Below are positions 1-14,328 of a DNA stretch of 43,230 bases, in pieces. How positions within the stretch are numbered: position 1 is the stretch's first letter; each line of letters begins with the position of its first letter. The position numbers and the translations under genes are program-made. Source of the stretch: an uncultured Candidatus Poseidoniales archaeon (lineage in GTDB: Archaea; Thermoplasmatota; Poseidoniia; Poseidoniales; Poseidoniaceae); the NCBI GenBank assembly GCA_964526445.1, contig CAZGIY010000003.1, forward strand, positions 1-43,230. Direction: 5' to 3'. The notes under the pieces were generated by a model. It saw only the letters and a program-made list of their open reading frames with translations, did no database searches and was not told the origin of the DNA.

Positions 1-742
1 CAACGACATTCTCGCGACGTGAAGATTGTGCCACAACCCTTCGATAGCGTCTCTGTGCCTCTGGCGTCAATGAATCCATCAACCATTTCTTGTCAGCCCT
101 ACCTCTACCTATCAACAATGGTGGAATCAAGAATACCCACCATATCGGTGCAAGTAATGCTGCTACCAAGAACATGGTTCCAAAAAATCTCCAGAAAGTT
201 GCCCAGAATAGCGCTAGCCATCTCTCTCCACGTTGCCCCCTAGAGCCCTGTCCCGAACTTATGACTGCCTCCATCTGCGGCATGAATACTACTAGGATCG
301 CAATGCTGGCTCCAACAGTCAACGTCAAACCATGAATTCGTAACAGCTCAAAACCAAGTCGTACTGCAACCATTGAACCCATTGCTAGCCCTAAAGCCCA
401 ACCACTAGTGGGGGCAGATTTGTTGAGGCGTACACTACGGCGAGTCAATAAGAACATCACGACCAAAGAAGTAAGGTTGGCAACGAATAATGACACCAAC
501 AGACCTGGCCATGTCCCAGTTCCACCACCTCCTTCTGCTGCAAGAACATAAGAAGGCAAGAATATCAATTCGTCAATCGCCAAAGCCAAGAATGACCCCA
601 GAATCAAACCGTATAGAATCATCCTAACTGCTGGTTGAATGTCATAAAAACCGTGCAATCTACGCATTCCACCTTGCCAACCAAGACCCATCCCCAAGAG
701 GCCGAAAAACAGCATCAGGTTGACCTGCGTTAGTTCGTTCAC
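1..742 (-). CDS. Multi-pass membrane protein of unknown function, truncated by the window edge
   Basis: Not in the ORF track. Read manually from GTG at 742: MNELTQVNLMLFFGLLGMGLGWQGG...LALAIDELIFLP...WALGLAMGSMVAVRLGF..., open to the window start with several hydrophobic segments. Confidence 0.75.
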   Translation of the reverse strand, partial: MNELTQVNLMLFFGLLGMGLGWQGGMRRLHGFYDIQPAVRMILYGLILGSFLALAIDELIFLPSYVLAAEGGGGTGTWPGLLVSLFVANLTSLVVMFLLTRRSVRLNKSAPTSGWALGLAMGSMVAVRLGFELLRIHGLTLTVGASIAILVVFMPQMEAVISSGQGSRGQRGERWLALFWATFWRFFGTMFLVAALLAPIWWVFLIPPLLIGRGRADKKWLMDSLTPEAQRRYRRVVAQSSRRENVV

Positions 743-822: not shown

Positions 823-3800
823 CTAGTCCCAAAGGACTGAATATGGATCATCATCATCATCAGAATCTGATTCAACCGGCGGCTGTTCGATAGGTAGAGA
901 TTGAGGGGATTGGCTAGGTGGCAGAGGTGGTTTAGGCTCAACTTCCGGCAATGCAGGAGCAGGGGGAGCTTCCGGTAATGCAGGAGCAGGGAGGACTTCC
1001 GGTAATGCAGGGGCAGGGTGGGCTTCCGGTAATGCAGGAGCAGGTGGGGCTTCCGGTAATGCAGGAGCAGGCGGGGCTTCAGTAGATACTGGAGTTGACT
1101 GTTCAGGTTCTGAAGCGGTTTCATCAATTGTCTTGGTATCATCTTGAATCTGAATGTCGATTACAGGTGCTGCTGGACTAGTTTGGCTCTCCTTGGGCTT
1201 CCGAATTACTCTTTTTGCATCTTTGAATTTTTCACTCCACTTACCGAGAGCATGCAACCAGTCCTCCTCAGAAGCAACGCCAGAATCCGAACCACTAGTC
1301 ACTGAAGAAAATGGGTCTTTTGTTGCGAATGGGTCATCTTTGTCTGTAGAAACAACATTCACTTCCATATTTACGCCAACAGATTGCTCATTTATCACCT
1401 TCTTGACAAAGAATTTCTGCCATAACGTAGATGGATAAATCTGTTCTAGAGACGAATCAACTTCATTTCCTGTAAGATAATCATTGAAGTTATCTGGATA
1501 CTTGGTTCTGAGGTAATTTATCGCTAACATATCTGGGATATGAAGGACACCTCTCATTCTTTGATTCCTAACGGATTCATCCTCAGACCATATGTCCAGC
1601 ACAGATTGCCAACGATTGACATCATCCTCAGGCAGTGCATGGGCAGTCATGTCACCGCTCTGCCTAACTGACTCGATAGCCTGATCAATAAGAGCTGGAT
1701 TTCCATACACCTTCCTTACCACATCAGATGGGACATTGAGTGCATCAAGATATTTGGGTGTAGGTTCATTCAACCATTGACCATGGAAAGTGGTCATCCA
1801 CAAGACATTCCTGAGGAAGGAGTAAGGATGTACCAAGGTCTTTGAGGCGGTAGAGAGTTGTCTTGTGGAAAGATCCTGATACACCTTTTTCATATTTTCA
1901 GCAATCTCAATTGAACCAGTCTTCTGCATCAATATCGTCATGGAAGCCAAAGGTCCTGCCTTGATATGTTGAATGAAGGTCTTGCCAGCGGTTTCAATCG
2001 GTCTGATGTATAAACGGAAATAATCATTGATGGTTTGCTTAATCTTTGAGGTCTCGACACCTGAACTGGTATTGATGACTGTCAAAAATTCATCTGGTTT
2101 TGATCTAAAGGCATCGACAGAACCTGTTAATTCAAAGGATACACCTTCTCCACCACGCATCTGGTGATTGAGGAATTTATGCTGCCTGACTGCTTGGAAC
2201 AATGCTGTGGATAATTTAGAAATGAAATTTCCGATATCTTTTGCAGCTTTGTTAACCCTGTGATGGTCAGCCTCTAGTTCTGCTTCTGCAAGTAATTCAG
2301 CAAGAGGCTTTTCACCACCCAATTCATTGTTGATGCTGTCCAATATCGCACGTAGAGAGTTAAGGTCGCGCTCAAATTCATCAGATTGTAGGATATCCAA
2401 CATTCGCATCTGCACAAGACGGAGGACTATTTCATGCTCATTCAATTCCGTGCTAGAACCAATTTCTACCTCTGCAAACATTAAGATGCGTTGTAACAAG
2501 GTTTCTGCAAACTTCTTTGGAGAAAAATTCCTTCCGAAATCATATTCTTGGTGACTCTGAATATTAGAAATCCATTGTGAACGAGACATATCCCCAAGAT
2601 ATGAATCTCTTAATGCCTGTTCTTGATGATTTGAATCCTCATATTTCTCGCCAAGAAGGGATGTCCTCATCATCGTCAATGACAATGGTTCTCCCAGATA
2701 CATTGGCCGAATAAGAGACATTCGATCGAATATCAATCGCGATTGTCGGAAGTCGGGAGTTTCTGAAGGTTCCCTTATCGCGGAATTGTTCTCTGGGTTG
2801 GAGCTCGAAGAAATCAGGGTATCGAACAGCGACAATGTACAGAATTCTGGAGATTTCTCAGCCGCCTTTAACTTCAGTCTAGAAAGCCATTCCACCGCCT
2901 CAGTCTTCAAGTGTAGCAACTTAGGGCCGTTTGCCCCATCTTCCCACATTGAAAGAAGGGTTTTTGGAGAATAATTCCGCTCATCGGCCAACAATGCTGG
3001 CAACACAACGGCATTGCGTTTTCCATCAGGCAATTTTCTGTACCTTGCTGCGCCCGCTACATGATATGCAGTAGGTGTAGCAAGGAATTCAACAACTCTT
3101 TCCTTTGAAATCTTTTGTTCATTGAAGATCAATTCGTCAGGAGTAAGAATGTATGCTGCAGGTTCGAACAGATAGCCGCTTTGGACTGCAGAAAGGTGAG
3201 AAATATCGAGAAGTCCTAGTTTCATCAACAGTTTTGCCAATTCTTCTCGATGCCCTCCCATGACTTCCATTCCAAAAACATCTCCAATCAAATTTGAGAA
3301 TTCAGCACTGCGGGTCTCCGGCTTCAATATTGAATTCTGTCCAGTGTAGCCCAGGATTCTACCTTGAACTGCTATCCATTGACTGGCAAGATTGCTAAAA
3401 TTCTTCACTTGTTTGGGTTCAAACTCCGCACTTAGAAAGCCTTTGATTAATTCCACAGGAATCAATCTTATCCAATGTAACATATTCACGGCCTCATCGA
3501 CTCCAAAGGAAAAACTACTCTCTAATTCATCAACATCCAGTCCCTCGGAAACAAGCAGTGAAAAGAAATTTCTCACAGCGGCATCATCAGAGGAATATGA
3601 CTGCCAAACTGGGTCTGAATGTGTTTGCCGATAACAATCAATGACATCGCGGGGATTGATATTGAACATATGACTCATATTACCACCAAAATACAGCGTG
3701 AATAAGGCCTTCAATGAATCACCGCCGATAGGGACCTGTTCATTCGATTCAGCGGAATATAATGGCGACGATGTCTTGGTGAAAAATCTATCAAAAACGG

Positions 3801-6800
3801 AATAGGGTGAAATTCTATCATAATCTTTCAACTGAGGTGTTTTGAATTGAACGATAGAAGATAATTCTTGAGTTGCTATAGGGTTCAACATAACTGCGGC
3901 CATAGGTGGTTTACTACGGCGCCGCATATCGCTTACATCCATTATTTCGTGTGTCCCTCCAGCATCAGAATGTGAACCGTCCTCGGAACACACCATACCA
4001 TGAACTATATTCACAAAGACCTCCGCCATAGTAGAGTTGTAAATCTCATATGTCGGCTCATTTCCATCATAGAAATTAACTGCCATATCAAGATGAGCAT
4101 TGCTGATAATCACGTGTTTAATCAAAGTATCATCAAGTACACCTCTGTTCATCAATATGCGCTCGCTCATATTGTATATTCTAGAATGATAACTTTGCAT
4201 TTTGATAGCATATTGCGCAATGAGATCACTTAATTCTTCATATGTATCAATAGATGTCTCACTATCGCTCGAAGAAGCCAAATTAGCATTGAGGGCAGCA
4301 GATTTTATTCCCTCTTTAACTCCTGAATGCTGTTCATCTGCAAGAATATCCCTGAATTCATCGACATCATCTACTTGGCCCCTCTTCTTCAGCAATGCCG
4401 ACAACGTCCTTAGATTTCCATAACTCAATTTATATCTCAAACCGGTTCTAACATCACTTTCCTGTGAACTCAGTTCATCTCCTCCAACTGCTACGTCAGC
4501 CCAGATGTTGGCTGGATCCGATGCAACTCTCAACCACTTTGCCCACACGTCAAAGAACTCATCACTATTGATTCCTACCAATCCATCGTGATAAGACGTG
4601 GCTTCTAGTTCCGTTAAAGGTAGTGATTCAAAAACGCTGAGATTTGAGTTTTCATCCCCAGTCATGGCTTTGAACGAATTGCCTCCAACGTGATTGAATT
4701 CCTCAAGAGACCTCCTATAGGAAGTTTTGCTGCTTGTGATTCTGTCTTGTAAATCTCCAAAATTTGAGCCAAGCGGACGTGAAATCTGTTCCCATAGGGC
4801 ATATAATTCCTTGAGGTTAGTGCGGCCTTTGTTTGAAAATCCTCTCCAATTAGTCTGAGTTAGTTTCTCAGCCCTGTGGTGCAAAGCATTGTAGTGAGAC
4901 TGTAGGACTTCACTTGTGATGTAGGATACATTGTGAGGAGTATAAGCACCCGTTCCATTCTTTTCATCACCAGCGGAAAGTACCCAGATATCAGCGTCGG
5001 GATATGCCAATTTGCATTCACCGAGCAGCGGCAATATCATCCCACTACCACTTCCTCCAGCAAAACTGTGAATGACTGCAATCTGTGTGACGTTTCGACT
5101 TCTGTTTTTGTATAATTCCAAAGCTTCTCTGATGTAGTCTCTTGCTGTAAATGCATAAGCTCGACCCTTACCCATTCTACCGCCGGCTCCTTGACAATCA
5201 GGATCCAACAACAATAGATTCGGAGATGGTCTTCGAATTAGTTCATTGTTATACTGCTTGTACGCATTATCACCTGCTCGGCCCCAAATGAAACTATATG
5301 GTTGCCTTAGTAACTGTTCAAGTTCAGGGCCAAGATTCAAGGCCAATAAATTAGCTTTCTTACCGAAAAGATTCTCCAGTTTTTCACGATTACGAACAGT
5401 GGGATTAGAAAAATCCTTCTCTTGGTTTCGACAAGCATCAATAGTTTCAATATCAGAACTGCTCAATCCCAAACCGTCCAACATGTTCCGAGAGCGACTG
5501 TCCGAAGTCGTGTTGAGAAGATTGGCCATGGTCGCACGAAGTATCTGCTGCCCTCCTTGACCCAGTCCAATCAATAAAGCACCTACGCCCTCAGATTGAA
5601 CTGTATCTGCACCCGAATCGTCAACAATATTTCGGAAATGATCGAGTTCCTGCCACATTTCCTTCTGAAATCTGAGCAAGGCGTCTTTTACTTCAGATGG
5701 TTCTGCCTTCTCAATGAATCTTGATGATTCCTGAGCCCTGTTCCTTAAGTTCCTACGCGAGGATTGCAAATCCTCTAACAAAGTCCCACCACCGGACAAT
5801 CTATCTATCGTAGATTGATTTGACATATGTTTCATCTGCACCTTGTAAGAACGTTCACAAATTTCTGCAGACTCGATGACATTTCTGAGTATCTGCTCGA
5901 TATCTGAAACGCTCAATTGTCCCTTAACAGCATCAGTCAGTCTTGGAATACCAAGGAACTTCTCAAAGTTCAGGATCCTTTCATTCCACGTGGCATCCAA
6001 TTTGTGCTCATGAGCATAAATGTCCAACTTTCTATTCCAGACACTAGGTGGGCTCGTTAAGATCTCCAATAACCTACTGAAATGTTCTTCGGACATATTT
6101 TCAGATTCAAGTAGTGAAATCTTTTTGGCAATAATGTCCATGTCATCGATGACACTTTCCTTTGCACTAGCAGGAATGCCGTCAATGATATGCTCGTATT
6201 TACTAGATACTTTTCTGTACTCATCTAGATAACGCTGATTGACTTCTGCATGGAGTCTCTCCTCCAATGAAGGAATTTCAAGGAATACAGAAGTCCTAGT
6301 ATTGTCAAGCCCCGGTGGTGATTTCCGCAATCTGAGAAAGAAATGTGCCTTAGTTGTCATTGAAAGTGCAGTATTCAGCATATCGTATTGTGACCCGCCC
6401 TTCTGCATTCCATTTGGCTCAAAAATGAATTGAGAGAACATATCATAAAGTACATCATCAGTAGAAAAGATGAACAGATTACTGCCCATTTGATTGTTCT
6501 CATAAATGTCAAGCAATGATGCGAGGAACTTGTGCACCTCCTCCATATCCAAGCCATGTTTATCTTCAATATCCCATTCAGCCTCAACAGAATTCAGTGG
6601 ACTAGTGAATTGCAGAAAACCTGCAAATGCTCTAGAGATAGTAGTAAGTTGATTTTTTGCCTGTGCCTCTACTTTGCCTGCACTAGCGATAATTGGAGAT
6701 ACTAGATGTTTCAGACCTTCGTACTGATCATGGATGAATTCTCTAATGTTTTTCAGAACCAAAGTCAAATGAGTGGATTCCATAGCCAACAACAAGCCGA

Positions 6801-7284
6801 AATATGACCTTTGGATTCTTGCGGAATATTCCTTCCCCTCAACTTCAAAAATTTCTCCTTCTACCAATGCTTTACCGAATAGATGTGCTAGATTGAGAGA
6901 TTTCATGTATAATGCAAACTCAATATTTGAAAAACTCGAATCATTATCCACGTTGTTTCTGTATTGTTTGATACAGTGAGATTCAACTGGAAATCCGGCT
7001 AATTCAGCAGCATCCAAACTAAAATCATTACTTGAAGAAACAACCCAATAATCATCTTCACCGCTTACCTTGAGGCGACCTCCAGAAAATGGAAGTCGTT
7101 GACAGAATTTTTGTTGTGGATTGATGGTCGATGATCTCTTCTTCAACCTCTTGATTGGTTTACGCTCATCATTTGCCCAAGCATTCAATGAACTACTAAT
7201 TCGTCGGGATTCTTTTTTTGTGGTTGACAAGACGGCGAATTCCCTGCGTAAGGAAGGAGGTGCCCCCTCAGAATTTGCGGACAT
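823..7284 (-). CDS. Giant (2153 aa) tubulin/FtsZ-superfamily GTPase-domain protein with N-terminal helical/coiled-coil region, large insertions and a Pro-rich acidic tail
   Basis: Motifs in canonical order: LLIGLGQGGQQI (T1), GAGGRMGKG (T3), VIHSFAGGSGSGM (T4 signature), TPHN, VIISNAHL, EPTYEIYN, EIMDVSD (T7 loop). Confidence 0.85.
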   Translation of the reverse strand: MSANSEGAPPSLRREFAVLSTTKKESRRISSSLNAWANDERKPIKRLKKRSSTINPQQKFCQRLPFSGGRLKVSGEDDYWVVSSSNDFSLDAAELAGFPVESHCIKQYRNNVDNDSSFSNIEFALYMKSLNLAHLFGKALVEGEIFEVEGKEYSARIQRSYFGLLLAMESTHLTLVLKNIREFIHDQYEGLKHLVSPIIASAGKVEAQAKNQLTTISRAFAGFLQFTSPLNSVEAEWDIEDKHGLDMEEVHKFLASLLDIYENNQMGSNLFIFSTDDVLYDMFSQFIFEPNGMQKGGSQYDMLNTALSMTTKAHFFLRLRKSPPGLDNTRTSVFLEIPSLEERLHAEVNQRYLDEYRKVSSKYEHIIDGIPASAKESVIDDMDIIAKKISLLESENMSEEHFSRLLEILTSPPSVWNRKLDIYAHEHKLDATWNERILNFEKFLGIPRLTDAVKGQLSVSDIEQILRNVIESAEICERSYKVQMKHMSNQSTIDRLSGGGTLLEDLQSSRRNLRNRAQESSRFIEKAEPSEVKDALLRFQKEMWQELDHFRNIVDDSGADTVQSEGVGALLIGLGQGGQQILRATMANLLNTTSDSRSRNMLDGLGLSSSDIETIDACRNQEKDFSNPTVRNREKLENLFGKKANLLALNLGPELEQLLRQPYSFIWGRAGDNAYKQYNNELIRRPSPNLLLLDPDCQGAGGRMGKGRAYAFTARDYIREALELYKNRSRNVTQIAVIHSFAGGSGSGMILPLLGECKLAYPDADIWVLSAGDEKNGTGAYTPHNVSYITSEVLQSHYNALHHRAEKLTQTNWRGFSNKGRTNLKELYALWEQISRPLGSNFGDLQDRITSSKTSYRRSLEEFNHVGGNSFKAMTGDENSNLSVFESLPLTELEATSYHDGLVGINSDEFFDVWAKWLRVASDPANIWADVAVGGDELSSQESDVRTGLRYKLSYGNLRTLSALLKKRGQVDDVDEFRDILADEQHSGVKEGIKSAALNANLASSSDSETSIDTYEELSDLIAQYAIKMQSYHSRIYNMSERILMNRGVLDDTLIKHVIISNAHLDMAVNFYDGNEPTYEIYNSTMAEVFVNIVHGMVCSEDGSHSDAGGTHEIMDVSDMRRRSKPPMAAVMLNPIATQELSSIVQFKTPQLKDYDRISPYSVFDRFFTKTSSPLYSAESNEQVPIGGDSLKALFTLYFGGNMSHMFNINPRDVIDCYRQTHSDPVWQSYSSDDAAVRNFFSLLVSEGLDVDELESSFSFGVDEAVNMLHWIRLIPVELIKGFLSAEFEPKQVKNFSNLASQWIAVQGRILGYTGQNSILKPETRSAEFSNLIGDVFGMEVMGGHREELAKLLMKLGLLDISHLSAVQSGYLFEPAAYILTPDELIFNEQKISKERVVEFLATPTAYHVAGAARYRKLPDGKRNAVVLPALLADERNYSPKTLLSMWEDGANGPKLLHLKTEAVEWLSRLKLKAAEKSPEFCTLSLFDTLISSSSNPENNSAIREPSETPDFRQSRLIFDRMSLIRPMYLGEPLSLTMMRTSLLGEKYEDSNHQEQALRDSYLGDMSRSQWISNIQSHQEYDFGRNFSPKKFAETLLQRILMFAEVEIGSSTELNEHEIVLRLVQMRMLDILQSDEFERDLNSLRAILDSINNELGGEKPLAELLAEAELEADHHRVNKAAKDIGNFISKLSTALFQAVRQHKFLNHQMRGGEGVSFELTGSVDAFRSKPDEFLTVINTSSGVETSKIKQTINDYFRLYIRPIETAGKTFIQHIKAGPLASMTILMQKTGSIEIAENMKKVYQDLSTRQLSTASKTLVHPYSFLRNVLWMTTFHGQWLNEPTPKYLDALNVPSDVVRKVYGNPALIDQAIESVRQSGDMTAHALPEDDVNRWQSVLDIWSEDESVRNQRMRGVLHIPDMLAINYLRTKYPDNFNDYLTGNEVDSSLEQIYPSTLWQKFFVKKVINEQSVGVNMEVNVVSTDKDDPFATKDPFSSVTSGSDSGVASEEDWLHALGKWSEKFKDAKRVIRKPKESQTSPAAPVIDIQIQDDTKTIDETASEPEQSTPVSTEAPPAPALPEAPPAPALPEAHPAPALPEVLPAPALPEAPPAPALPEVEPKPPLPPSQSPQSLPIEQPPVESDSDDDDDPYSVLWD
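946..1080 (-). repeat. 5 x 27-bp coding tandem repeat, consensus EAPPAPALP
   Basis: The unit ggggcttccggtaatgcaggagcagg recurs with a few substitutions and translates to EAPPAPALP, EAPPAPALP, EAHPAPALP, EVLPAPALP, EAPPAPALP. Confidence 0.95.
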
Positions 7285-7326: not shown

Positions 7327-9681
7327 TCACCCACCGATTCCCCCCACGAATACGAATTGGGGTGAAAATTCTGATGCAGCCAAAGCGGGGTGCCAAGCAA
7401 CAACTGACTCACTCAATACATCCTCTCGAACACCTTCAAATGAATGGCACACGGGGCAGTCCTGAAAATCAATCCATTTTTCTCCATAGTCACTCAAAAG
7501 GCATGTGAATTTAATTGTTCCATGTTCAGCTGAATCGAAGGGAGGGAAGTGATTGCTGTTGAGTTCATTCATTGTTGAGAAACACGATACGCGCTTATTA
7601 CCACTTGAATGAATGAATCGCAGGATTCTCGGAGACAATATTTGGCTAACTGGATGATTATCCGATAGCAACTCCATGACTCCTTCAGAGCACCATATAG
7701 CGCCAAGACATGAGTCGACATCAGCAATGAGGTCCTCAGACAGAAATGTTTCTTCGCCACTAGAATGCGTCCAGTTCAAAGCGCTCAGAACTGGAAGGAT
7801 AAACTTGTTACCCAAGCCACCATTGGCTACGACCTTGAATGGGTCCTCGGATCGACCCTCATTTCCTATTTCCTTCGATTTCTCCAGCCCTCTGTATAGA
7901 TTCCTGGCAAGCACCAAACGGCCTGATGAAACTGGAATTTCGATTGTCTCCCGTTGAATATCTAATATGTTCAATTCGCCCATTTGCCAAACTATCGGCT
8001 CCAATCTAGATTCTGAATCCAATTGCCTAATAGCTTCATTTGGTAACATTTTTCGTATCAATGGATCAGATAATTCTTGCCTCAACTTACTATTGATGGA
8101 AAATGTTCCTTGATAATCAAGAAATTTGCGCAAATCATTCCAGATTCTATGGTATTCGGGGCCATAGGCTGCTGAAACTCGGTCACGAATTTTTTGATGT
8201 ATTGCATTCAGAGATGGCCATTCCGAATAGGGAATGGTAAGGAAAAATGGATGAGTTCTTCTATAGTGGAGTAGTATTTCTTCCTCACTTGCGTCATGTT
8301 CTGCAAATATACCGCATTCACTACATTCTTTAGTATCATTAGATTGATTGTGGCGCAAATGGTGCTCTCCAAAATCATCAATGTGTACCAAATGGGAGCC
8401 GATTCTGCTCAGAAGTTTAGAATTCAAGGATGAGGCAGAAACTCTTCTTCCAGACGTAGGGATGGAAACAATACAATTGCGAACATTGTCGAATACTGGG
8501 ATGGTGAATGGAGGAACTCTTTCAAAGTCACAATCGATCATTAACCATGGAATTGAAATGCCATGAACTCTCTTACTTCGAATCAATTTGAAACCATTTG
8601 CCAATAAGTTGACTGAATCCATGTTTTCCGGAATTAACAAGATAACTTCAAGGCGCGACTGAACTAAAGGTTGATTCAACATATCTTCTTTCAGACTTAT
8701 CTTCAAACTTCCTTGATTCTGTCCATTATTGCCAGATTGCAAATCACTTAACTGGTCGATGTCACCATCAAAAAATCGATTCATCTCAACCATTTCATTC
8801 AAATTGATGGCCAAGGAATAAAGGAATCGAATCGATTCATCCCATGCATCGGTCAATTCCAGTTCCCCGTGAAATGCGATTTCGGTTCCAACATCATACA
8901 AGCCCGATGAGTGGAAAGTCGAAGTGAATTCAATAAAGTCCTTGAGGTTATTCAAAAACCCCTTGGTTTCAAGTGAATCCTTGAATCCATCGATTGATGA
9001 AACATCAATCTGGAAATTTTCAATCCACTTCAGAAACTCACCTCCAGTGATTACCTGCTCATTGAAATTTGCTACATTGCTGAATCCTCCTCCGTCAATA
9101 ACGTCATGCAATCGTTCAATCATCTGCATTTCAAACAGTGTCAGAGTTCGGAGTAATGCGGGGCAATAGAACAATGACCCCCATGGTGTGCTTGTTTCAT
9201 TAATTGGTTGAATGATTCTCGCGCCTAATGGTTCACAATAGATATCGCGTGAGCCAGCCGATGCCCAACCTATCTGAAAAGGGTCCTTGGATTTAAAAAT
9301 CTGATCCTTGTATTGCTCGCTCTCTATGAATCTCTTTACAAACTCATTTTCCGGATGTTCTGAAATGCGAAAATGTATGGCTTTGGCCTTGGCATATACG
9401 GAATTGCTCTTACAACTAAGGCATCTAGGGCACCAACGGCATACCATCTCATCGACGAAAACATCTGAATCATTCTCCAAGAGGCAAGTAACCTTCTTAT
9501 CGACAACCAAATCATTGGTCATTTTTATGAAATCCAAATCTGTGGACTGAGAAGGCTCAATCCCAAGAATAGATGATATTTCTCTTACATAATTTCCTAA
9601 TGGCGCTCTTTGCCCTTTCCTCCGAAGTTGTCGTCTCCCTTCTCCGCTGATATCGACACTGGCAATAATCAAATCACTCAC
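7327..9681 (-). CDS. Hypothetical soluble protein (784 aa) with several putative zinc-binding motifs
   Basis: CRWCPRCLSC near the N-terminus, C2H2-like CSEC-x14-HYRRTH in the middle, CPVCH near the C-terminus. The start overlaps the upstream stop. Confidence 0.8.
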   Translation of the reverse strand: MSDLIIASVDISGEGRRQLRRKGQRAPLGNYVREISSILGIEPSQSTDLDFIKMTNDLVVDKKVTCLLENDSDVFVDEMVCRWCPRCLSCKSNSVYAKAKAIHFRISEHPENEFVKRFIESEQYKDQIFKSKDPFQIGWASAGSRDIYCEPLGARIIQPINETSTPWGSLFYCPALLRTLTLFEMQMIERLHDVIDGGGFSNVANFNEQVITGGEFLKWIENFQIDVSSIDGFKDSLETKGFLNNLKDFIEFTSTFHSSGLYDVGTEIAFHGELELTDAWDESIRFLYSLAINLNEMVEMNRFFDGDIDQLSDLQSGNNGQNQGSLKISLKEDMLNQPLVQSRLEVILLIPENMDSVNLLANGFKLIRSKRVHGISIPWLMIDCDFERVPPFTIPVFDNVRNCIVSIPTSGRRVSASSLNSKLLSRIGSHLVHIDDFGEHHLRHNQSNDTKECSECGIFAEHDASEEEILLHYRRTHPFFLTIPYSEWPSLNAIHQKIRDRVSAAYGPEYHRIWNDLRKFLDYQGTFSINSKLRQELSDPLIRKMLPNEAIRQLDSESRLEPIVWQMGELNILDIQRETIEIPVSSGRLVLARNLYRGLEKSKEIGNEGRSEDPFKVVANGGLGNKFILPVLSALNWTHSSGEETFLSEDLIADVDSCLGAIWCSEGVMELLSDNHPVSQILSPRILRFIHSSGNKRVSCFSTMNELNSNHFPPFDSAEHGTIKFTCLLSDYGEKWIDFQDCPVCHSFEGVREDVLSESVVAWHPALAASEFSPQFVFVGGIGG

Positions 9682-11053
9682 CTACACTCTGAAACAAGGT
9701 GTCAATAGTTGATACTGAACTATCGGCATTTGCAGAAGAACGAATCTCATCAGCCCTTCTTATTCCAATACTGGGAAACTCTAGATTATACATAGACAGC
9801 ATGTGCTCCTTTCGCAGTTCTTTCAGCAGTAATGTCTCTGCTTCGGACATTGCTGTATGCCTATTGAAATTCATTAAGAGATCACTTTCACGGGGATCGA
9901 TAATCGAACCATTAGCAAAAATTCTGGCCCTGTTCAACAAACCGTGTTCCGGAGGCTTTCCGCAAGAATCTGTTAGTTTCTTGATATTTTGCTTGTATAA
10001 TTCATCAGGGAATCTCCCCCCCACATCAGCCCAATGATAGAGAATTGACTTGGTAAGTATCGAGGCCCGTTGCAGCATAGAATTGATATTTCCAATTCCG
10101 TTATCATTGTCAAACAACTCTCCCTCAGAAACCCCTTTGGATGTCAATATACCAAGGACCATGATATTGTTCAATTCAATTTCCCCATCTAAATGACCGA
10201 CATTGCAAATGTGGTGGATGAGTCTATCGACCATTTCCTCTCCATGTTTATTGAAAATGTATCTATATGTGTAATTCTGTAATTCAATATCATCTTTCCA
10301 GCCATGGTTCAACCCCATCTGCATCCAGAAAGCGGGGAAGAATCTTCCCATTATATTCTCTACAGAAATGAAAATGCCTACTTCCTTGAAAGAATTTGCA
10401 TCACGTTTGATTATGAATTCGTTGAAAGTCTCCAGAATTCTATCATCCAAAATCTCTCCCATTCTAATTGATTCAGATTCTTCAACAAGTTTTGGATTGC
10501 GGAGAAATTCCTTCCATTTATCTTTCATAGTCAACAATTCTTGGGAGCCTGAATCATCCTTGGATTCTGTTGTTCCAGAACCTGCAGCTCGCGCAAATGT
10601 TGCTAGCAAATATGCTAAACAGTATACAGTTACGATGAATGACGCACCAGTAATTAGTGACATGACCAGAGGGGCCTCTGCCCATTCACCAATTTCTCGA
10701 GGTGAAGCAGAACGGATTGTATAATAAGTAGCGATTCCAAATGCAGCAAAAATTGAGATCGTCATATATCTGGTGAACGAACCGGAGGATTGGGAATGAG
10801 ACCCCATCTTGTTTTGAGCAACACCAAAGAGTAAACTCGTGTTCACCACAAAGATGATCGAGATGAATATCGCTGAAATCAATATTCTCACGATGTCAAT
10901 TTGCCAGTCAGAAAATTGTATCTGGACGTACTCTGTACTGCGCTTCATGAATATCTCAGAAATGAACCACATTGGCAGAAATAGCAACATCAGCACCGTC
11001 GATACTGTTGGATAATCACTGATTGCAAGGTTTGGGTTTCTATCCGATGCCAA
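9674..11053 (-). CDS. Membrane protein (459 aa): about 4 N-terminal TM helices and a soluble C-terminal domain
   Basis: Four hydrophobic stretches in the first ~155 aa, then a hydrophilic domain. GGAGGTGA Shine-Dalgarno-like motif upstream. Confidence 0.8.
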   Translation of the reverse strand: MASDRNPNLAISDYPTVSTVLMLLFLPMWFISEIFMKRSTEYVQIQFSDWQIDIVRILISAIFISIIFVVNTSLLFGVAQNKMGSHSQSSGSFTRYMTISIFAAFGIATYYTIRSASPREIGEWAEAPLVMSLITGASFIVTVYCLAYLLATFARAAGSGTTESKDDSGSQELLTMKDKWKEFLRNPKLVEESESIRMGEILDDRILETFNEFIIKRDANSFKEVGIFISVENIMGRFFPAFWMQMGLNHGWKDDIELQNYTYRYIFNKHGEEMVDRLIHHICNVGHLDGEIELNNIMVLGILTSKGVSEGELFDNDNGIGNINSMLQRASILTKSILYHWADVGGRFPDELYKQNIKKLTDSCGKPPEHGLLNRARIFANGSIIDPRESDLLMNFNRHTAMSEAETLLLKELRKEHMLSMYNLEFPSIGIRRADEIRSSANADSSVSTIDTLFQSVGE

Positions 11054-11057: not shown

Positions 11058-12224
11058 TCACCTCCACAAAATTATGCCATCAAGTTCTACAATAATCGAG
11101 TTTGTATCTGATTCTGCTGCCAATGCATCAGTATCATCTATGAATATCGGCGTCATTCCTGGAAGGCGCTCCATCCTATCTCCCAAGATGATTTGCATCA
11201 ACCTTGGAGGGCACCAGACCCTAAGTACTGGCCATCGCAAGTTGTCAGATATGTTGACATTCGAAGAAAACAACTCATGGATACTCTTGAAGCGCTGTGG
11301 GACCCAAGTAGTTTCTGCGACACTGATCAAAGAAGACAAGTCATCAAGAATAGCCTGAAAACTACCCTTCTGTCGCCATTTCTCCTCAGTGGAATCAAAC
11401 ATCTTTTCCTTCCTCCCCAGGCCTGAACTTTGCCATACTGACACCAGCGAAGAATTGTTTGCAATGCTATGAGGCCATCCATACTTGATAAGAAAACGTC
11501 CAGAGATTTCTTCACTTGTCTCGATATAATGATTACTAATCAATTCAGGATGAGACCGTTCGAGCCTTCTTTTCAGTGCTGATGTCAGAATAATCTGTGT
11601 TACACGAAATCCACCTTGAAGCTCACGATCAAATCTGACACTTGAATGCTGATCAAGGATCAATCGGAACCCCATTCCGCTGGTAGCCAACATTGAATCT
11701 GAACGGAAAATGCAATCTGGCGGGTTGTATTTTCCCTGAACCAAAATGTTTCCATCTCGATTTTCTGTTGGATGTCGATTAACCAAGCAATTAGCACAAG
11801 TGGGTTCTGACGGGTCATTTTCAATCAACATCTGCTTCATCATAGGATATGTCCTTGGTGAAGAATCATGACTTGTGTAATCAATAGACTCGTTCTTACA
11901 ACCGAAACCTGTGATTAGTGAATCGAACCATATACTGGGCTCATCCAATTCATCTTCTATTTCTGAATATATTGATTTCAACGATTCATATCTTGAGTCA
12001 GAAGGTGCTTCATCATAATTATCTCCTGCAACCAACTCATTGAAGCGTTCCGATCTTTCTTCGATGAACTCAGAAATCAATACTTCTCTGAAATCGCTCA
12101 CTGAATGTAGTCGGGGTGAAGTTGCAAGTGCCCGATTGAAATGAATATATGTGGCCTTCAAAAATTGTTGCAGCCATCTATTGTCTGCCCTCATCGACAT
12201 TCTTCGTTCAGCTTGCATTCTCAC
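11058..12224 (-). CDS. Hypothetical soluble protein (388 aa)
   Basis: Long ORF whose GTG start overlaps the upstream stop (GTGA). Contains CANC plus a distal Cys. No family recognised. Confidence 0.75.
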   Translation of the reverse strand: MRMQAERRMSMRADNRWLQQFLKATYIHFNRALATSPRLHSVSDFREVLISEFIEERSERFNELVAGDNYDEAPSDSRYESLKSIYSEIEDELDEPSIWFDSLITGFGCKNESIDYTSHDSSPRTYPMMKQMLIENDPSEPTCANCLVNRHPTENRDGNILVQGKYNPPDCIFRSDSMLATSGMGFRLILDQHSSVRFDRELQGGFRVTQIILTSALKRRLERSHPELISNHYIETSEEISGRFLIKYGWPHSIANNSSLVSVWQSSGLGRKEKMFDSTEEKWRQKGSFQAILDDLSSLISVAETTWVPQRFKSIHELFSSNVNISDNLRWPVLRVWCPPRLMQIILGDRMERLPGMTPIFIDDTDALAAESDTNSIIVELDGIILWR

Positions 12225-13945
12225 GCCCCCAAAAATGGCACCATTTCCTTTAACGTCTCCATCCCTATTGTAGTGCCAACTACAACACCTTTACGTCTGT
12301 TGATTAATGATTTCATCTTAAATGATTCATCATTATTGAATGATTGCGACGCGCTCGTTGTCCGTGCAATTTCCTTCCTCAATCTGATAGAGTGTATTCT
12401 AGTTGTAATTTTTGAAATTACTTCGTCCAAATCCATCCATGCAATTGGCAACTCTTGAGTCGATTCTTGCATCTCCAATGAATTCACAATATCGTCATGA
12501 TGCTGTATGAAATTCTCTACTGGTACTCTGGCGATATCATCCATTCTTGCTCCCCACGAGGATATTCTTGAAGGTTCAAACAATTTGATGATGATTTCTC
12601 GGATATTTCTATCAATAATGTTTCGCGCTCCATCGATTGCACCCATTCTATCCATTGCAGACATAACATTTTCACCATCAATATAGATTTGAAATGGTTG
12701 ATTTGGATCAGTACTCTTGACAATATGCGCTGTATGACTCTCATCACCATAAAACCACTCTACATCACCCCTCTTTCCAAAGGAAGGATTTGCCATAATC
12801 TCACAATATCCGCGTACCATTTCCTTCCACCTTTCTGCATTGTAGTCATTGTTGATGTTCAATCGGGATAACAGAATGAGATAGTTCCGAATCTTCATGC
12901 GTTCCTCAGGTTCTAGATAATGCATCAGTAGTTTTGTGCATTTGTTCACGATTGGATGCTTTTGGGGATCTAGTAACCTTGCAGCTGCACGACTCAGATG
13001 CTCTGGTTCAAGACTCAAATGGATAAATCTAGCACCTGTGGGAGAAGATATCTCTTTACTAGTCAAACTTCTTCGATCCACGATCTTGTCTCCTGAATAT
13101 ATGGTCCAGCGTTCCTTTGAAGACAAAATGAACAGGAGAATGAATGCAGCACTATTATCCTCAAAATTGATAAGATTTGGTAAATCACCGATGAAGTTTC
13201 CTTCTCTTTTCAAGCGTTCCATGGAACGTATAGTTGCAGGTTCGAGGTCCCTGATATTCGCATTGAATACAGTACTATTCTTCCCTGACCTCAATGCGAG
13301 GGGCACGCAGAATGATGCATCGACCAGTGAATAAGAACCAATTGGTTCTGGGCAATAGATAATATCAGTTTCATTAGAATGCAATGGTCGAAGTTCAAAA
13401 TTAAGAGTGGTTTGATTGGTTCTAATATCTGTCGACACTAGGGGAGCCATTGTCAGCACCATATTCAACTTGGAATAGTGTTTCAAGAACCTCAGAACAC
13501 GTTCCTTGTCGGTAGGGACAAACATTCCTCCCTGTACAGCGAAAAACAATAGGAAGAATATGCCTATTAGTGATGTGAAGAAACTTGTATGATACAATCC
13601 TATTTCGGCAAAACTTTCCGCCAATAATCTAACTGGAAGCGAGGCAATCGAACTGAAGAAGATGATTGGCTGCAATATTTCCAATGTTCTTACTTTCAAC
13701 TTCCGTAAATGGGGAATAATCGTCATTACGAAATACAGGATGAATAGAGAGGTGCAAATAAACAGTCCAAGATAGATGTTTGTCGCCACTTCATCATCAG
13801 AGATTAGAGTGAAATAATCCGCAATCACCGCCAACTGCAGTAGACTGAGCCACAGTATTATCCTTTTGTTCTCAATAATATTTTGGGATAACCAGGCAAT
13901 TTTTGTTGCGAATATTCTTAGCTTCTCAAAACTAAACAACCCCAT
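12221..13945 (-). CDS. Membrane protein (574 aa): about 4 N-terminal TM helices and a large soluble domain
   Basis: Hydrophobic segments at about aa 28-140, then a hydrophilic domain. Overlaps both neighbours, suggesting translational coupling. Confidence 0.8.
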   Translation of the reverse strand: MGLFSFEKLRIFATKIAWLSQNIIENKRIILWLSLLQLAVIADYFTLISDDEVATNIYLGLFICTSLFILYFVMTIIPHLRKLKVRTLEILQPIIFFSSIASLPVRLLAESFAEIGLYHTSFFTSLIGIFFLLFFAVQGGMFVPTDKERVLRFLKHYSKLNMVLTMAPLVSTDIRTNQTTLNFELRPLHSNETDIIYCPEPIGSYSLVDASFCVPLALRSGKNSTVFNANIRDLEPATIRSMERLKREGNFIGDLPNLINFEDNSAAFILLFILSSKERWTIYSGDKIVDRRSLTSKEISSPTGARFIHLSLEPEHLSRAAARLLDPQKHPIVNKCTKLLMHYLEPEERMKIRNYLILLSRLNINNDYNAERWKEMVRGYCEIMANPSFGKRGDVEWFYGDESHTAHIVKSTDPNQPFQIYIDGENVMSAMDRMGAIDGARNIIDRNIREIIIKLFEPSRISSWGARMDDIARVPVENFIQHHDDIVNSLEMQESTQELPIAWMDLDEVISKITTRIHSIRLRKEIARTTSASQSFNNDESFKMKSLINRRKGVVVGTTIGMETLKEMVPFLGA

Positions 13946-14225
13946 CCAAATTCCCCCCAGTCATCAACAAGAAAGATACAGGAGCGATATTTTCTGTTAT
14001 TTCTATACTTGTCAATCCATTATCATGCATCAAGATGCTGACCTCGATTCTCAACCTCCTTCTTGCAACTTCCAACTTCTTATCATAGGATACTTTCTTT
14101 CCATCCGCAATTCTATCCTCTATCCGTTCAAGGGCCCTCTCGGCACGAGAAATTTCTAGGGCAGTCTGCCTTCTGAAAATATATGAACCTTCAAGAGCTG
14201 AGATGAAGGCCCTGATATCAATCAT
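13932..14225 (-). CDS. Small helical/coiled-coil hypothetical protein (~97 aa)
   Basis: Track ORF 13932..14243. ATG at 14225 (MIDIRAF) is preferred because GAGGAG lies upstream and it overlaps the stop of a small upstream ORF. Confidence 0.65.
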   Translation of the reverse strand: MIDIRAFISALEGSYIFRRQTALEISRAERALERIEDRIADGKKVSYDKKLEVARRRLRIEVSILMHDNGLTSIEITENIAPVSFLLMTGGNLDGVV

Positions 14226-14328
14226 CTTTGACACTCTCCTCAAGGACCTTTTTCACTTCATCCAAACATACCGCAATGAAATTATCAAGATTAAAATCCT
14301 CAGTGTTGTGGCCATTCACGTTTGTCAA
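14218..14328 (-). CDS. Putative 36-aa small acidic protein (MTNVNGHNTEDFNLDNFIAVCLDEVKKVLEESVKDD)
   Basis: Found manually. GGAGG lies 8 nt upstream of TTG at 14328, the stop overlaps the next ATG (ATGATTGA), and the ORF fills the intergenic gap. Confidence 0.45.
   Translation of the reverse strand: MTNVNGHNTEDFNLDNFIAVCLDEVKKVLEESVKDD

What the first reader, a model, noticed from the sequence alone, without database searches (positions are those of the whole stretch)
3920..5590. GTPase motifs look more like eukaryotic tubulin than FtsZ
By-eye comparison with remembered tubulin motifs: GLGQGGQQI vs GQCGNQI (FtsZ has GVGGGG); GAGGRMGKG vs GAGNNWAKG; VIHSFAGGSGSGM vs alpha FHSFGGGTGSG and beta HSLGGGTGSGM; TPHN vs EPYN; ISNAHL vs DNEAL; EPTYEIYN vs PTYGDLN/PTYTNLN. 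The T7 loop (GTHEIMDVSD) keeps an FtsZ-like DxxD, suggesting polymerisation-activated hydrolysis. Close prokaryotic tubulin relatives are known from few lineages (BtubAB, artubulins, Asgard tubulins), so one in a marine euryarchaeon would be notable.
Basis: partly seen in the sequence, partly recalled or inferred. Interest (0 to 1): 0.85.

Follow-up and report, generated by a model that had tools for sequence, protein, structure and literature searches.

The report
Giant archaeal protein with split tubulin-like core
A 2153-residue protein of a marine Poseidoniales archaeon carries a very divergent tubulin/FtsZ-type GTPase core, split by huge insertions and closer to tubulin than to FtsZ in its motifs; it defines an undescribed family in a conserved gene cluster.

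Summary
They lie in one 2153-aa ORF (window 823-7284, minus strand), and the key residues are invariant in 27 aligned relatives.

AlphaFold2 models give a tubulin/FtsZ GTPase domain (Z 17-18). They also give, weakly (Z 6.5-7.6), the C-terminal domain. Large insertions of about 250 and 570 residues split the core.

The family profile scores tubulins best:
- tubulins: 20-41 bits
- Tubulin_2/FtsZl1: median 9 bits
- FtsZ: 2.9 bits at most
- hhalign scores: tubulin 93, Tubulin_2 56, FtsZ 44

The T3-to-T4 spacing (44 residues) also equals tubulin's.

It is not a close tubulin relative. Identity is 12-19%, Pfam scores fall below threshold, and no Tubulin_C is detected by sequence. The tree gives a separate clade (99/97) on an unresolved backbone. 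AU tests reject neither tubulin, Tubulin_2 nor FtsZ as sister.

The gene ends a conserved co-directional cluster of 8-9 genes that includes membrane and coiled-coil proteins. The cluster was found in 5 of 401 Poseidoniales genomes and on 41 marine metagenome contigs.

Verdict: a new deep family of the tubulin superfamily. It is probably a GTP-driven scaffold at the membrane, but that function is inferred.

The parts
823..7284 (-). ORF of 2153 aa: giant tubulin-superfamily protein (P0001)
   Evidence: 28 relatives of about 1900-2200 aa (one of 1223), 27-70% identical over res 560-1300.
5605..7284 (-). N-terminal extension, res 1-560; not modelled; only coiled-coil-like weak PDB matches
4876..5592 (-). 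GTPase domain, first part (S1 to H5, res 565-803). Holds T1 GLGQGG (5551-5568), T3 GAGGRMGKGR (5161-5190), T4 HSFAGGSGSGM (5038-5070) and the H5 motifs TPHN...SHYNALHH (4876-4941). The H1-S2 and H2-S3 regions are enlarged (T1 to T4 = 170 residues).
   Evidence: AF2 model; VIA Z 17-18 to tubulin, CetZ and FtsZ; invariant residues; hhalign to tubulin, prob 97.7; spacing
4141..4875 (-). Insertion of about 245 residues (res 804-1048), helical, between H5 and S6
   Evidence: AF2 secondary structure, model residues 256-493; poorly conserved columns in A3
3910..4140 (-). S6, T6 (SNAHL, 4090-4104), H7 (PTYEIYNS, 4033-4056), T7 (EIMDVSD, 3928-3948); res 1049-1125
   Evidence: D1116 and D1119 are invariant. 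This block alone gives no significant profile match. The T7 stretch has low pLDDT.
3859..3897 (-). Short strands right after T7 (res 1130-1142): proposed S7 of the C-terminal domain
   Evidence: model 2. VIA alignments to FtsZ, TubZ and tubulin C-terminal domains start at model residue 1. Weak; inferred.
2134..3858 (-). Insertion of about 575 residues (res 1143-1717), mostly helical, confidently folded. Its place corresponds to the S7-H9 loop (inferred).
   Evidence: model 2: pLDDT 84, pTM 0.82; order of matched elements
1858..2133 (-). Strand-strand-helix-strand-strand-helix unit (res 1718-1809): proposed S8-H10-S9-S10 plus the following helix of the FtsZ/tubulin C-terminal domain. It is the second most conserved block (G1714, V1715, G1721, D1724, R1727, N1738, K1768, F1770, G1777, P1778).
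   Evidence: pdb_via: M. jannaschii FtsZ res 251-340, Z 7.6, 88 aligned, rmsd 2.7; TubZ Z 6.8; beta-tubulin res 270-438, Z 6.5, 141 aligned. No sequence-level signal.
1165..1857 (-). C-terminal helical region (res 1810-2040) with the conserved motifs VHPYSFLRN and LHIPDM
826..1164 (-). Tail: Pro-rich repeats (27-bp unit x 5.1 at 942-1080) and an acidic end, DPYSVLWD
   Evidence: end peptide shared only with P0004
7327..9681 (-). 784-aa gene directly upstream (cluster C2); no known family
   Evidence: C2 sits directly upstream of the tubulin-like gene in 23 of 43 loci; a C4+C3 pair takes its place in the other 20
9674..11053 (-). 459-aa protein with about 3 hydrophobic helices
11058..12224 (-). 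388-aa protein (cluster C5), no known family
12221..13945 (-). 574-aa protein with about 4 N-terminal hydrophobic helices
13932..14243 (-). 103-aa charged, coiled-coil-like protein (C19)
14348..14971 (-). 207-aa protein: N-terminal hydrophobic helix plus coiled-coil-like rest (C10)
15016..29529 (-). 4837-aa ORF: signal-peptide-like N-terminus, C-terminal hydrophobic helix, Big_13 Ig-like domain. Its 3' end (C12) lies upstream of the cluster in 11 of 43 loci, this window among them.

Best explanation
The ORF 823-7284 (minus strand) encodes a member of an undescribed, deep-branching family of the tubulin/FtsZ superfamily, so far seen only in marine Poseidoniales and marine metagenomes. Shown: the protein has a complete set of nucleotide-binding motifs (T1, T3, T4, T5/H5, T6, H7) and an invariant T7 DxxD. 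The N-terminal GTPase domain is predicted with a tubulin/FtsZ fold. By profile scores and motif spacing it is nearer to tubulins than to Tubulin_2/FtsZl1, FtsZ or TubZ. It is nevertheless a clade of its own. [quoted passage not shown] The roughly 400-residue core would then be spread over about 1250 residues, with further long extensions at both ends. Inferred mechanism: GTP binds in the N-domain pocket. Head-to-tail self-association brings D1116 and D1119 of T7 into the next subunit's pocket and triggers hydrolysis, as in FtsZ and tubulin. The insertions sit in the H1-S2 region, the H5-S6 loop and, by inference, the S7-H9 loop. In tubulin the H1-S2 and S7-H9 loops make the lateral contacts (recalled knowledge). 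So the protein would form single filaments or oligomers decorated with large helical arms, not microtubule-like lattices. Those arms would bind the products of the conserved co-directional cluster, which include three membrane proteins and two coiled-coil proteins. That would make a GTP-driven scaffold at the membrane. It is not the division machine: the genome has three ordinary FtsZ genes.
For: Fold: model 1, pLDDT 70.7. VIA Z: alpha/beta tubulin 18.2, Asgard AtubA/B 18.1, OdinTubulin 18.1, CetZ 17.2-17.5, BtubA 17.4, FtsZ 17.3, PhuZ/TubZ 12.5-14.6, next unrelated fold 9.7. Foldseek's top rows are beta-tubulins, E 2e-4. Motifs are invariant in 27 members. Leaning to tubulin: PDB best 60 all tubulins. 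In 1.84 billion representatives, 117 hits at E<=1e-3. Of the 20 non-family-range hits scanned with Pfam, 6 carry Tubulin_C and none carries FtsZ_C. HMM bits: tubulin 35-41, Tubulin_2 at most 19.3, FtsZ at most 2.9, TubZ at most -0.3; the reverse test agrees. hhalign scores 93.4 / 55.8 / 43.9 / 40.6. T3-T4 spacing: family 44, tubulin 44-45, FtsZ 37, Tubulin_2 49. Own clade 99/97. C-terminal domain: model 2, pLDDT 84.2, matches whole FtsZ C-domains (88 aligned, rmsd 2.7, Z 7.6), TubZ (Z 6.8) and tubulin res 270-438 (141 aligned, Z 6.5), and FtsZ, CetZ, OdinTubulin and chorismate mutase in the Foldseek-independent search. Cluster: C2 or C3 lies directly upstream of the gene in 43 of 43 loci, with the same gene sizes and order in two subtypes. 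Hydrophobic helices in neighbours. Three FtsZ genes with FtsZ_C in the same genome.
Against: Pfam scores are below the cut-offs: PF00091 25.8-29.8 against 33; PF13809 21.7-24.6 against 27. The tree backbone is unresolved, and AU tests do not separate tubulin, Tubulin_2 or FtsZ as sister (p 0.43, 0.28, 0.28). The six tubulins in my hhalign and HMM sets were picked as top hits of the family profile, which inflates those scores; only the PDB ranking is free of this bias. The S6-H7-T7 block and the proposed C-domain pieces give no significant profile match to any family. All C-domain Z values lie under the tool's stated noise level of 8, and a ThiL domain scores the same (7.4). The T7 stretch has pLDDT under 50. 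No test of self-association or GTPase activity was possible. No neighbour has a recognisable family, so the function of the cluster is a guess.
Confidence: 0.62

Rival explanations
1. It is a specific sister or derivative of the tubulin lineage: an archaeal tubulin relative outside Asgard that later gained insertions and extensions.
For: Tubulins are the best outgroup in every profile test. T3-T4 spacing is 44, as in tubulin. H5 'HYNALHH' and H7 'TYxxxN' resemble tubulin signatures (and the sequence itself). Helices follow the last strand, and tubulin aligns over 141 residues up to res 438. Forcing family+tubulin costs the least likelihood (dlnL 2.29, against 6.08 and 7.43).
Against: The free tree does not join them. 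The ML neighbours are two unnamed proteins, P0124 and P0140 (77/69). The AU test has no power here. Identity is 12-19%. No Tubulin_C by sequence. T7 is DxxD, as recalled for FtsZ, not the tubulin form. The family HMM gives only 8.5 bits to L012, a tubulin-like protein from the same phylum. Long-branch attraction between divergent groups is possible.
Confidence: 0.2
2. It is a very divergent offshoot of the FtsZl1 / Tubulin_2 family of Makarova and Koonin (2010).
For: Similar overall style: very large proteins, inserts between T1 and T4, long helical parts, sparse distribution, operons with membrane proteins, presence beside ordinary FtsZ (PMC2875224, Findings section read). PF13809 matches res 570-754 over profile positions 1-183, and all 27 members hit it (best E 1.8e-10). 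NCBI names one partial member 'tubulin-like doman-containing protein'. The AU test does not reject family+Tubulin_2 (p 0.28).
Against: PF13809 is below its cut-off, and ordinary FtsZ proteins cross-hit it at 29-37 bits, so the hit is not diagnostic. 20 archaeal Tubulin_2 proteins score a median 9.1 bits with the family HMM, against 35-41 for tubulins. hhalign 55.8 against 93.4. Tubulin_2 forms its own clade without the family (84/98). No similarity outside the GTPase domain. No vWA, P-loop GTPase, OmpA or kinase neighbour. T6, H7 and T7 are recognisable here, whereas the paper could not identify them in FtsZl1.
Confidence: 0.13
3. The domain is a GTP-binding switch or a degenerate module inside a large structural protein and does not polymerise.
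For: The insertions and extensions make up about 80% of the protein. T7 is modelled with low confidence. There is no experimental or in-silico evidence of self-association. Makarova and Koonin also raised non-filament roles for FtsZl1.
Against: D1116 and D1119 are invariant across members only 24-64% identical to the window's domain. Such conservation of T7 is expected if it completes a neighbour's active site (established for FtsZ and tubulin; recalled knowledge). All nucleotide-contact motifs are kept.
Confidence: 0.3
4. The cluster belongs to a mobile element, virus or defence island, and the tubulin-like protein serves that element, as TubZ and PhuZ do.
For: Sporadic occurrence: 5 of 401 Poseidoniales genomes, in 5 of 26 genera, and none of 6 other genomes of the same genus. 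GC is 0.40-0.42 in 1-30 kb against 0.45-0.48 beyond.
Against: No relative in 2.9 million viral contigs. No PADLOC hit and no meaningful PHROG hit. No tRNA in the window, and no integrase-like Pfam hit among the ORFs scanned. TubZ and PhuZ are the poorest structural and profile matches. Housekeeping genes flank the cluster. MAGs often lose variable islands, so rarity may be overstated.
Confidence: 0.1

Closest known systems
Tubulins (eukaryotic alpha/beta/gamma; BtubA/B; Asgard AtubA/B and OdinTubulin)
   Same: Best profile and PDB sequence matches. Same GTPase fold, Z 17.4-18.2. T3-T4 spacing of 44. T3 GxGxxxxKG and T4 HSxxGGxGSGM alike. H5 YNAL.H and H7 TY...N alike. Helices after the last strand of the C-domain.
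   Different: 12-19% identity. 2153 aa against about 450. Insertions of about 245 and 575 residues. T1 is GLGQGG, not GQCGNQ. T7 is MDxxD. No Tubulin_C by sequence. Own clade. Part of an operon with membrane proteins.
FtsZl1 / Tubulin_2 (PF13809; Makarova and Koonin 2010, PMC2875224)
   Same: Giant multidomain proteins with a divergent N-terminal-type GTPase domain, inserts between T1 and T4, helical remainder, patchy distribution, gene clusters with membrane proteins, coexistence with FtsZ.
   Different: Below the PF13809 cut-off. Lower profile scores than tubulin. Separate clade. The GTPase domain lies 560 residues from the N-terminus. T6, H7 and T7 are recognisable, and a C-terminal domain is probably present. 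No vWA, GTPase, OmpA or kinase partners.
FtsZ and CetZ
   Same: Same fold (Z 17.2-17.5). T7 with two acidic residues three apart, as in FtsZ. The C-terminal domain matches FtsZ best (Z 7.6, 88 residues).
   Different: Family HMM gives at most 2.9 bits to 34 FtsZ. No FtsZ_C by Pfam. T1-T4 spacing is 170 against 89. The genome already has three FtsZ genes. CetZ was tested only by structure and by its absence from the PDB best 60.
TubZ / PhuZ (plasmid and phage tubulins)
   Same: Divergent superfamily members encoded in accessory DNA. The single-sequence PDB search gave TubZ as nominal best hit (E 0.12).
   Different: Lowest structural Z (12.5-14.6). At most -0.3 bits with the family HMM. No TubR-like partner. 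No viral relatives.
Unnamed proteins P0124 (993 aa) and P0140 (515 aa) from public assemblies
   Same: hhalign prob 97.9 and 97.2 to the family profile. Shared LAINxGPE, GCGxxMGKGR and ISNxxF motifs. ML neighbours in the tree.
   Different: Half or a quarter of the size. P0124 has a Cys-rich N-terminus. Source organisms unknown. Support only 77/69.

Membership tests
Tubulin (bona fide: Pfam Tubulin + Tubulin_C) | PF00091 above the gathering score (33 bits) | tested here: not met
   25.8 bits for the whole protein; 29.8 bits for the excised region. All 27 members match at E<=0.01, best E 1.8e-12.
Tubulin (bona fide: Pfam Tubulin + Tubulin_C) | Tubulin_C (PF03953) C-terminal domain | tested here: not met
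   No PF03953 hit at E<=0.1. Structure gives only a weak match to tubulin res 270-438 (Z 6.5).
Tubulin (bona fide: Pfam Tubulin + Tubulin_C) | Falls inside the tubulin clade in a tree | tested here: not met
   Separate clade 99/97; tubulins plus L012 and P0130 form their own clade 98/87. A sister relation is not rejected (p 0.43).
Tubulin (bona fide: Pfam Tubulin + Tubulin_C) | Signature motifs and spacing (T3 GAGNNWA, T4 GGGTGSG, T3-T4 about 44-45, H5 EPYN, H7 TYxxLN); the motif strings are recalled | tested here: inconclusive
   Spacing of 44 is met. The motifs are similar but not identical. T1 and T7 differ.
FtsZl1 / Tubulin_2 (PF13809) | PF13809 above the gathering score (27 bits) | tested here: not met
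   21.7 and 24.6 bits. Ordinary FtsZ proteins reach 29-37 bits by cross-hit.
FtsZl1 / Tubulin_2 (PF13809) | Groups with Tubulin_2 proteins | tested here: inconclusive
   Tubulin_2 clade 84/98 excludes the family. AU p 0.28 does not reject a sister relation. Only 11 archaeal Tubulin_2 rows were in the tree.
FtsZl1 / Tubulin_2 (PF13809) | Operon partners: vWA protein, P-loop GTPase, OmpA, kinases (PMC2875224) | tested here: not met
   No Pfam or NCBIfam family in the six neighbours. No Walker A motif.
FtsZ | FtsZ_C (PF12327) and an FtsZ-type profile match | tested here: not met
   No PF12327. No NCBIfam hit at E<=0.1. An FtsZ HMM gives 1.5 bits to the window's domain.
CetZ | Groups with CetZ; CetZ-type C-terminus | tested here: inconclusive
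   Structure ties with tubulin and FtsZ (Z 17.2-17.5). No CetZ among the PDB best 60. No CetZ sequences for a tree.
TubZ / PhuZ | TubZ-like fold and plasmid or phage partition context | tested here: not met
   Z 12.5-14.6 against 17-18. At most -0.3 bits. No viral relatives. Only 2 TubZ sequences were used.
Tubulin/FtsZ superfamily | Two-domain fold with T1-T7 motifs | tested here: met
   N-domain Z 17-18, well above the next fold at 9.7. Motifs invariant. The C-domain is only weakly supported.

The most novel reading that the evidence does not exclude
This family is a second archaeal lineage, outside Asgard, that is specifically related to tubulin. Its lateral-contact loops (H1-S2 and the M-loop position) have been replaced by domains of hundreds of residues. 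It would therefore form GTP-driven single protofilaments carrying large arms. These would organise a membrane machine of 8-9 genes linked to a 4837-residue surface protein in planktonic Poseidoniales.
Probability: 0.15. Interest if true: 0.85.

Novelty: new variant of a known kind. Interest (0 to 1): 0.6.

Why it matters
The tubulin superfamily is central to ideas on how the eukaryotic cytoskeleton arose. Known prokaryotic members that lean towards tubulin are few.

This family shows that the core fold tolerates insertions of hundreds of residues at the very loops that build the microtubule wall. Its nucleotide site resembles tubulin's more than FtsZ's.

It also marks a conserved and wholly uncharacterised multi-gene system in one of the most abundant archaeal groups of the surface ocean. 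The system has a clear enzymatic handle (GTPase, T7 aspartates), so it can be tested.

Tried and rejected
Single-sequence searches were too weak to decide anything. phmmer against PDB gave TubZ E 0.12 and beta-tubulin E 0.23. The full-length family profile mostly picked up coiled-coil noise.

A search for shorter relatives found only two fragments.

The viral-contig scan matched 210 patterns, none a relative.

PADLOC gave 0 hits. PHROGs gave one meaningless hit at E 0.0037.

The Atlas search with the 784-aa neighbour gave a best score of 0.76, uninformative.

hhalign of the T6-H7-T7 block and of the proposed C-domain pieces against tubulin, FtsZ, Tubulin_2 and TubZ gave nothing significant.

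hhalign of the full-length family against full-length Tubulin_2 showed no similarity beyond the GTPase domain.

The look-up of sequencing runs listed five marine-metagenome DNA runs from 2 studies, three of them possible sources of this DNA. No RNA holder was listed.

There is no tRNA in the window.

I first read model 1 as lacking a C-terminal domain, because everything after T7 was helical. Model 2 changed that reading.

Complex prediction was not used. Two copies of the uninterrupted core (574 aa each) exceed the 1000-residue limit, and split chains would only rebuild the monomer.

Contiguous pieces and column-trimmed alignments were used instead.

CetZ, artubulin, OdinTubulin and BtubAB sequences could not be obtained, so they are missing from the tree and from the HMM tests.

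Literature searches found no paper on this family. Of PMC9258230 and PMC9871819 I saw passages only. Of PMC2875224 I read the Findings section.

Rows dropped:
- L004, L049 and L050 (near-duplicates) from the synteny clustering.
- 12 of 27 family rows, 9 of 20 Tubulin_2 rows and 18 of 34 FtsZ rows from the tree, for size; the FtsZ-type ORF of L007 was added.
- P0121, P0123 and P0127 (short hits to insertion or C-part profile positions) were not scanned with Pfam.


Full report
WHAT IS THERE

The finding's coordinates (3920-5590) lie on the minus strand inside a single ORF, 823..7284, of 2153 aa. Residue n starts at base 7284-3(n-1).

The window is archaeal. Downstream of the cluster lie ArsA/Get3, SRP54, SurE and aIF5A genes. 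Related loci in species genomes are titled Candidatus Poseidoniales or Poseidoniaceae. The window is contig C3 of a 1.92-Mb assembly that is 79% complete.

THE FAMILY

- A word-indexed search found 28 relatives, all 1924-2188 aa except one of 1223. They are 27-70% identical over res 560-1300 and almost all unnamed.
- An exhaustive HMM search of 1.84 billion representatives with the family's domain profile (A3) gave 117 proteins at E<=1e-3. About 31 are near full length (E 1e-107 to 1e-197); the rest of the family-range hits are fragments. After a gap come hits at E 4e-6 to 8e-4.
- One partial member is named by NCBI 'tubulin-like doman-containing protein'.
- Five literature searches found no description of the family.

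FOLD

An AlphaFold2 model of res 555-1330 with a 29-row alignment has mean pLDDT 70.7. It shows strands S1-S5 with their helices, a helical insertion (model 256-493), S6, H7 and a poorly defined T7 stretch.

Foldseek's best rows are beta-tubulins: E 2e-4, about 240 columns, 17-18% identity.

A Foldseek-independent comparison with 48,161 representative chains gave these Z scores:
- alpha/beta tubulin 18.2 (255 aligned, rmsd 3.4)
- Asgard AtubA/B 18.1
- OdinTubulin 18.1
- gamma-tubulin 18.0
- CetZ2 17.5
- BtubA 17.4
- FtsZ 17.3
- PhuZ and TubZ 12.5-14.6
- the first unrelated Rossmann-type fold 9.7

So the tubulin/FtsZ GTPase fold is clear. Structure alone ties tubulin, CetZ and FtsZ.

A second model, of res 1130-2040 with 39 rows, has pLDDT 84.2 and pTM 0.82. 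It contains no GTPase domain. Even so, Foldseek's top rows were beta-tubulins and TubZ, at weak E values of 0.04-0.1. The second-look aligner matched entire C-terminal domains:
- M. jannaschii FtsZ res 251-340: Z 7.6, 88 aligned, rmsd 2.7
- S. aureus FtsZ res 226-315: Z 7.6
- TubZ: Z 6.8
- beta-tubulin res 270-438: Z 6.5, 141 aligned

The independent wide search again listed FtsZ (7.0), CetZ (6.2, 5.5), OdinTubulin (5.4), beta-tubulin (5.2) and chorismate mutase (5.3). It also listed ThiL at 7.4.

These Z values are under the tool's noise level of 8. But the matches cover whole domains and come from the right part of the right families.

The matched model range, 1..660, joins the strands just after T7 (res 1130-1142) with a strand-strand-helix-strand-strand-helix unit at res 1718-1809. 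That unit is the second most conserved block of the protein.

My reading is that the C-terminal domain exists and is split by about 575 residues at the position of the S7-H9 loop. This is inferred from the order of the matched elements, not from a residue-level alignment. No sequence-level signal supports it.

TUBULIN OR FTSZ?

1. The family profile against PDB sequences gave 124 hits at E<=10. The 60 listed are all tubulins: BtubB 4.8e-6, AtubA 6.1e-6, gamma 1e-4, beta 1e-4 to 2e-3. No FtsZ, CetZ or TubZ is among them. This ranking is free of any choice of mine.

2. I scanned 20 of the 23 weakest hits of the exhaustive search with Pfam.
   - 6 carry Tubulin_C, among them Theileria and Necator gamma-tubulins.
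   - 11 carry PF00091 only.
   - 3 carry nothing.
   - None carries FtsZ_C.

3. Family HMM bit scores:

| Set | Scores |
|---|---|
| 34 Thermoplasmatota FtsZ | max 2.9, median -1.0 |
| 2 TubZ | at most -0.3 |
| 20 archaeal Tubulin_2 | max 19.3, median 9.1 |
| 7 selected tubulins | 35.2-41.3 |

   In reverse, median bits on the 27 family members were: tubulin HMM 24.9, FtsZ 4.9, Tubulin_2 6.2, TubZ 6.5.

4. hhalign of the S1-H5 part:

| Comparison | Score |
|---|---|
| family vs tubulin | 93.4 (prob 97.7) |
| family vs Tubulin_2 | 55.8 |
| family vs FtsZ | 43.9 |
| family vs TubZ | 40.6 |
| control: tubulin vs FtsZ | 64 |
| control: tubulin vs Tubulin_2 | 67 |

5. T3-to-T4 spacing: family median 44, tubulin 44-45, FtsZ 37, Tubulin_2 49, TubZ 55.

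Caveat: the tubulins in points 3 and 4 were themselves top hits of the family profile, so those scores are inflated. Point 1 and the FtsZ and Tubulin_2 sets are not affected.

Both Pfam matches of the window protein are below their cut-offs. The PF13809 match is not diagnostic, because ordinary FtsZ proteins cross-hit it at 29-37 bits.

TREE

The tree has 55 rows and 164 columns of the S1-H5 region, under LG+C20 PMSF.
- The family is one clade (99/97) on a stem of length 1.0.
- FtsZ (85/67), Tubulin_2 (84/98) and tubulins with L012 and P0130 (98/87) are separate clades.
- The backbone is unresolved.
- In the ML tree the nearest rows are two unnamed proteins, P0124 and P0140 (77/69).

hhalign confirms these two as distant relatives: prob 97.9 and 97.2, with shared LAINxGPE and GCGxxMGKGR motifs.

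AU tests reject none of the three groupings:
- family+tubulin: dlnL 2.29, p 0.43
- family+Tubulin_2: dlnL 6.08, p 0.28
- family+FtsZ: dlnL 7.43, p 0.28

The tree therefore shows a distinct deep family and nothing more. CetZ, artubulin, OdinTubulin and BtubAB were not available as sequences.

CONTEXT

I clustered the ORFs of 42 related loci plus the window. The tubulin-like gene (C1) is present in 43 of 43. It is always preceded, on the same strand, by C2 (about 750-790 aa; 23 loci, the window among them) or by C4+C3 (about 410+350 aa; 20 loci).

Further upstream, two subtypes share the same order and gene sizes:
- about 215 aa, with a hydrophobic helix and a coiled-coil-like rest
- about 100-130 aa
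- about 500-570 aa, membrane protein
- about 360-390 aa
- about 450 aa, membrane protein

Many loci end at contig borders, so the counts for the outer genes are minima.

In the window these genes are 14348-14971, 13932-14243, 12221-13945, 11058-12224, 9674-11053 and 7327-9681. None has a Pfam, NCBIfam, PADLOC or meaningful PHROG match.

In subtype A the cluster follows the 3' end of a giant surface-protein gene. In the window this gene has 4837 aa, a signal-like N-terminus, a C-terminal hydrophobic helix and a Big_13 domain.

The genome has three ordinary FtsZ genes, each with FtsZ_C.

DISTRIBUTION

- With the domain profile, 5 of 401 Poseidoniales species genomes match, G000 included. They fall in 5 of 26 genera and in both large families. 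Only 1 of 67 high-quality genomes matches, and none of 6 other genomes of the same genus.
- With the single protein, 2 of 201 match.
- Four loci were found among the 185,579 species genomes scanned by pattern, and 41 loci in marine metagenomes.
- None was found in viral contigs.
- GC is lower in the cluster region than beyond it: 0.40-0.42 against 0.45-0.48.

The cluster looks like flexible-genome content. MAGs under-sample such regions, so it may be less rare than the counts suggest.

HOW IT MOST LIKELY WORKS

Shown: a full set of nucleotide-site motifs and an invariant T7 pair of aspartates, in a tubulin/FtsZ fold.

Inferred from what is established for FtsZ and tubulin (recalled knowledge): GTP binds one subunit, and the T7 aspartates of the next subunit complete the active site. 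Hydrolysis is thereby coupled to head-to-tail assembly.

The insertions lie in the H1-S2/H2-S3 region, in H5-S6 and, by inference, in S7-H9. They, and not the longitudinal faces, carry the extra mass. This fits single filaments or rings with large helical arms that dock to the cluster's membrane and coiled-coil proteins.

Polymerisation, membrane association and any link to the giant surface protein are untested.

COMPARISON AND VERDICT

The protein works like a member of the tubulin/FtsZ superfamily, and in its nucleotide site it resembles tubulin most. It fails the membership tests for bona fide tubulin, FtsZ, Tubulin_2 and TubZ.

In overall style it recalls FtsZl1: giant size, inserts, helical parts, membrane-protein operon, patchy spread (PMC2875224, Findings section read). 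It shares with FtsZl1 neither that family's profile score, nor its partners, nor similarity outside the GTPase domain.

I file it as a new family, that is, a new variant of a known kind. The interpretation as a close tubulin relative is only partly supported.

Noticed in passing
window 15016-29529 (minus strand): ORF of 4837 aa with a signal-peptide-like N-terminus, a C-terminal hydrophobic helix and one Big_13 Ig-like match. It is probably a giant cell-surface protein. Its 3' end lies upstream of the tubulin-like cluster in 11 of 43 loci, this window among them.
   Followed up: partly
window 1-30000 against 30001-43230: GC content shifts from 0.40-0.42 to 0.45-0.48 at about 30 kb, where the cluster with the giant gene ends and the housekeeping genes (ArsA/Get3, SRP54, SurE, aIF5A) begin. 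This suggests a genomic island.
   Followed up: partly
L012:1099-2520 (+), genome G029 contig C101 (Thermoplasmatota): A 474-aa open frame with tubulin-type motifs. My tubulin HMM scores it at 70.6 bits, the FtsZ HMM at 8.2. It is 24-28% identical to eukaryotic tubulins and groups with them (98/87). It is a more direct prokaryotic tubulin relative than the protein of this finding.
   Followed up: partly
protein cluster of P0119 (82 members, contigs up to 44.9 kb): Proteins of 331-333 aa with Tubulin plus Tubulin_C. They match only PF00091 profile positions 75-189, so they appear to lack the T1-T2 part. They lie on long contigs of unknown origin.
   Followed up: no
P0124 (993 aa, on a 48.9-kb contig) and P0140 (515 aa): Smaller distant relatives of the family (hhalign prob 97.9 and 97.2). 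P0124 has a Cys-rich, zinc-ribbon-like N-terminus and a Gln/Gly-rich tail. Their source organisms are unknown.
   Followed up: partly
window 942-1080 and 826-849: A tandem repeat of 27 bp x 5.1 encodes PAPALPE-type repeats near the C-terminus. It is followed by an acidic tail ending DPYSVLWD, which only the closest relative P0004 shares (DPYGVLWD).
   Followed up: partly
window 38395-41733 (minus) and 41816-43228 (plus): ORFs of 1112 aa and more than 471 aa without any Pfam match.
   Followed up: no
L001:8822-14121: In this MAG the homologous gene is broken into several frames (1117, 113, 345, 184 and 135 aa). These may be frameshifts or assembly errors; the same holds for L003 (1740 + 302 aa).
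   Followed up: no
window about 2842-3321 (protein res ~1322-1481): In model 2 a helical bundle (model residues 193-352) gives weak matches (Z about 6) to SAM domains and helix-hairpin-helix modules.
   Followed up: no
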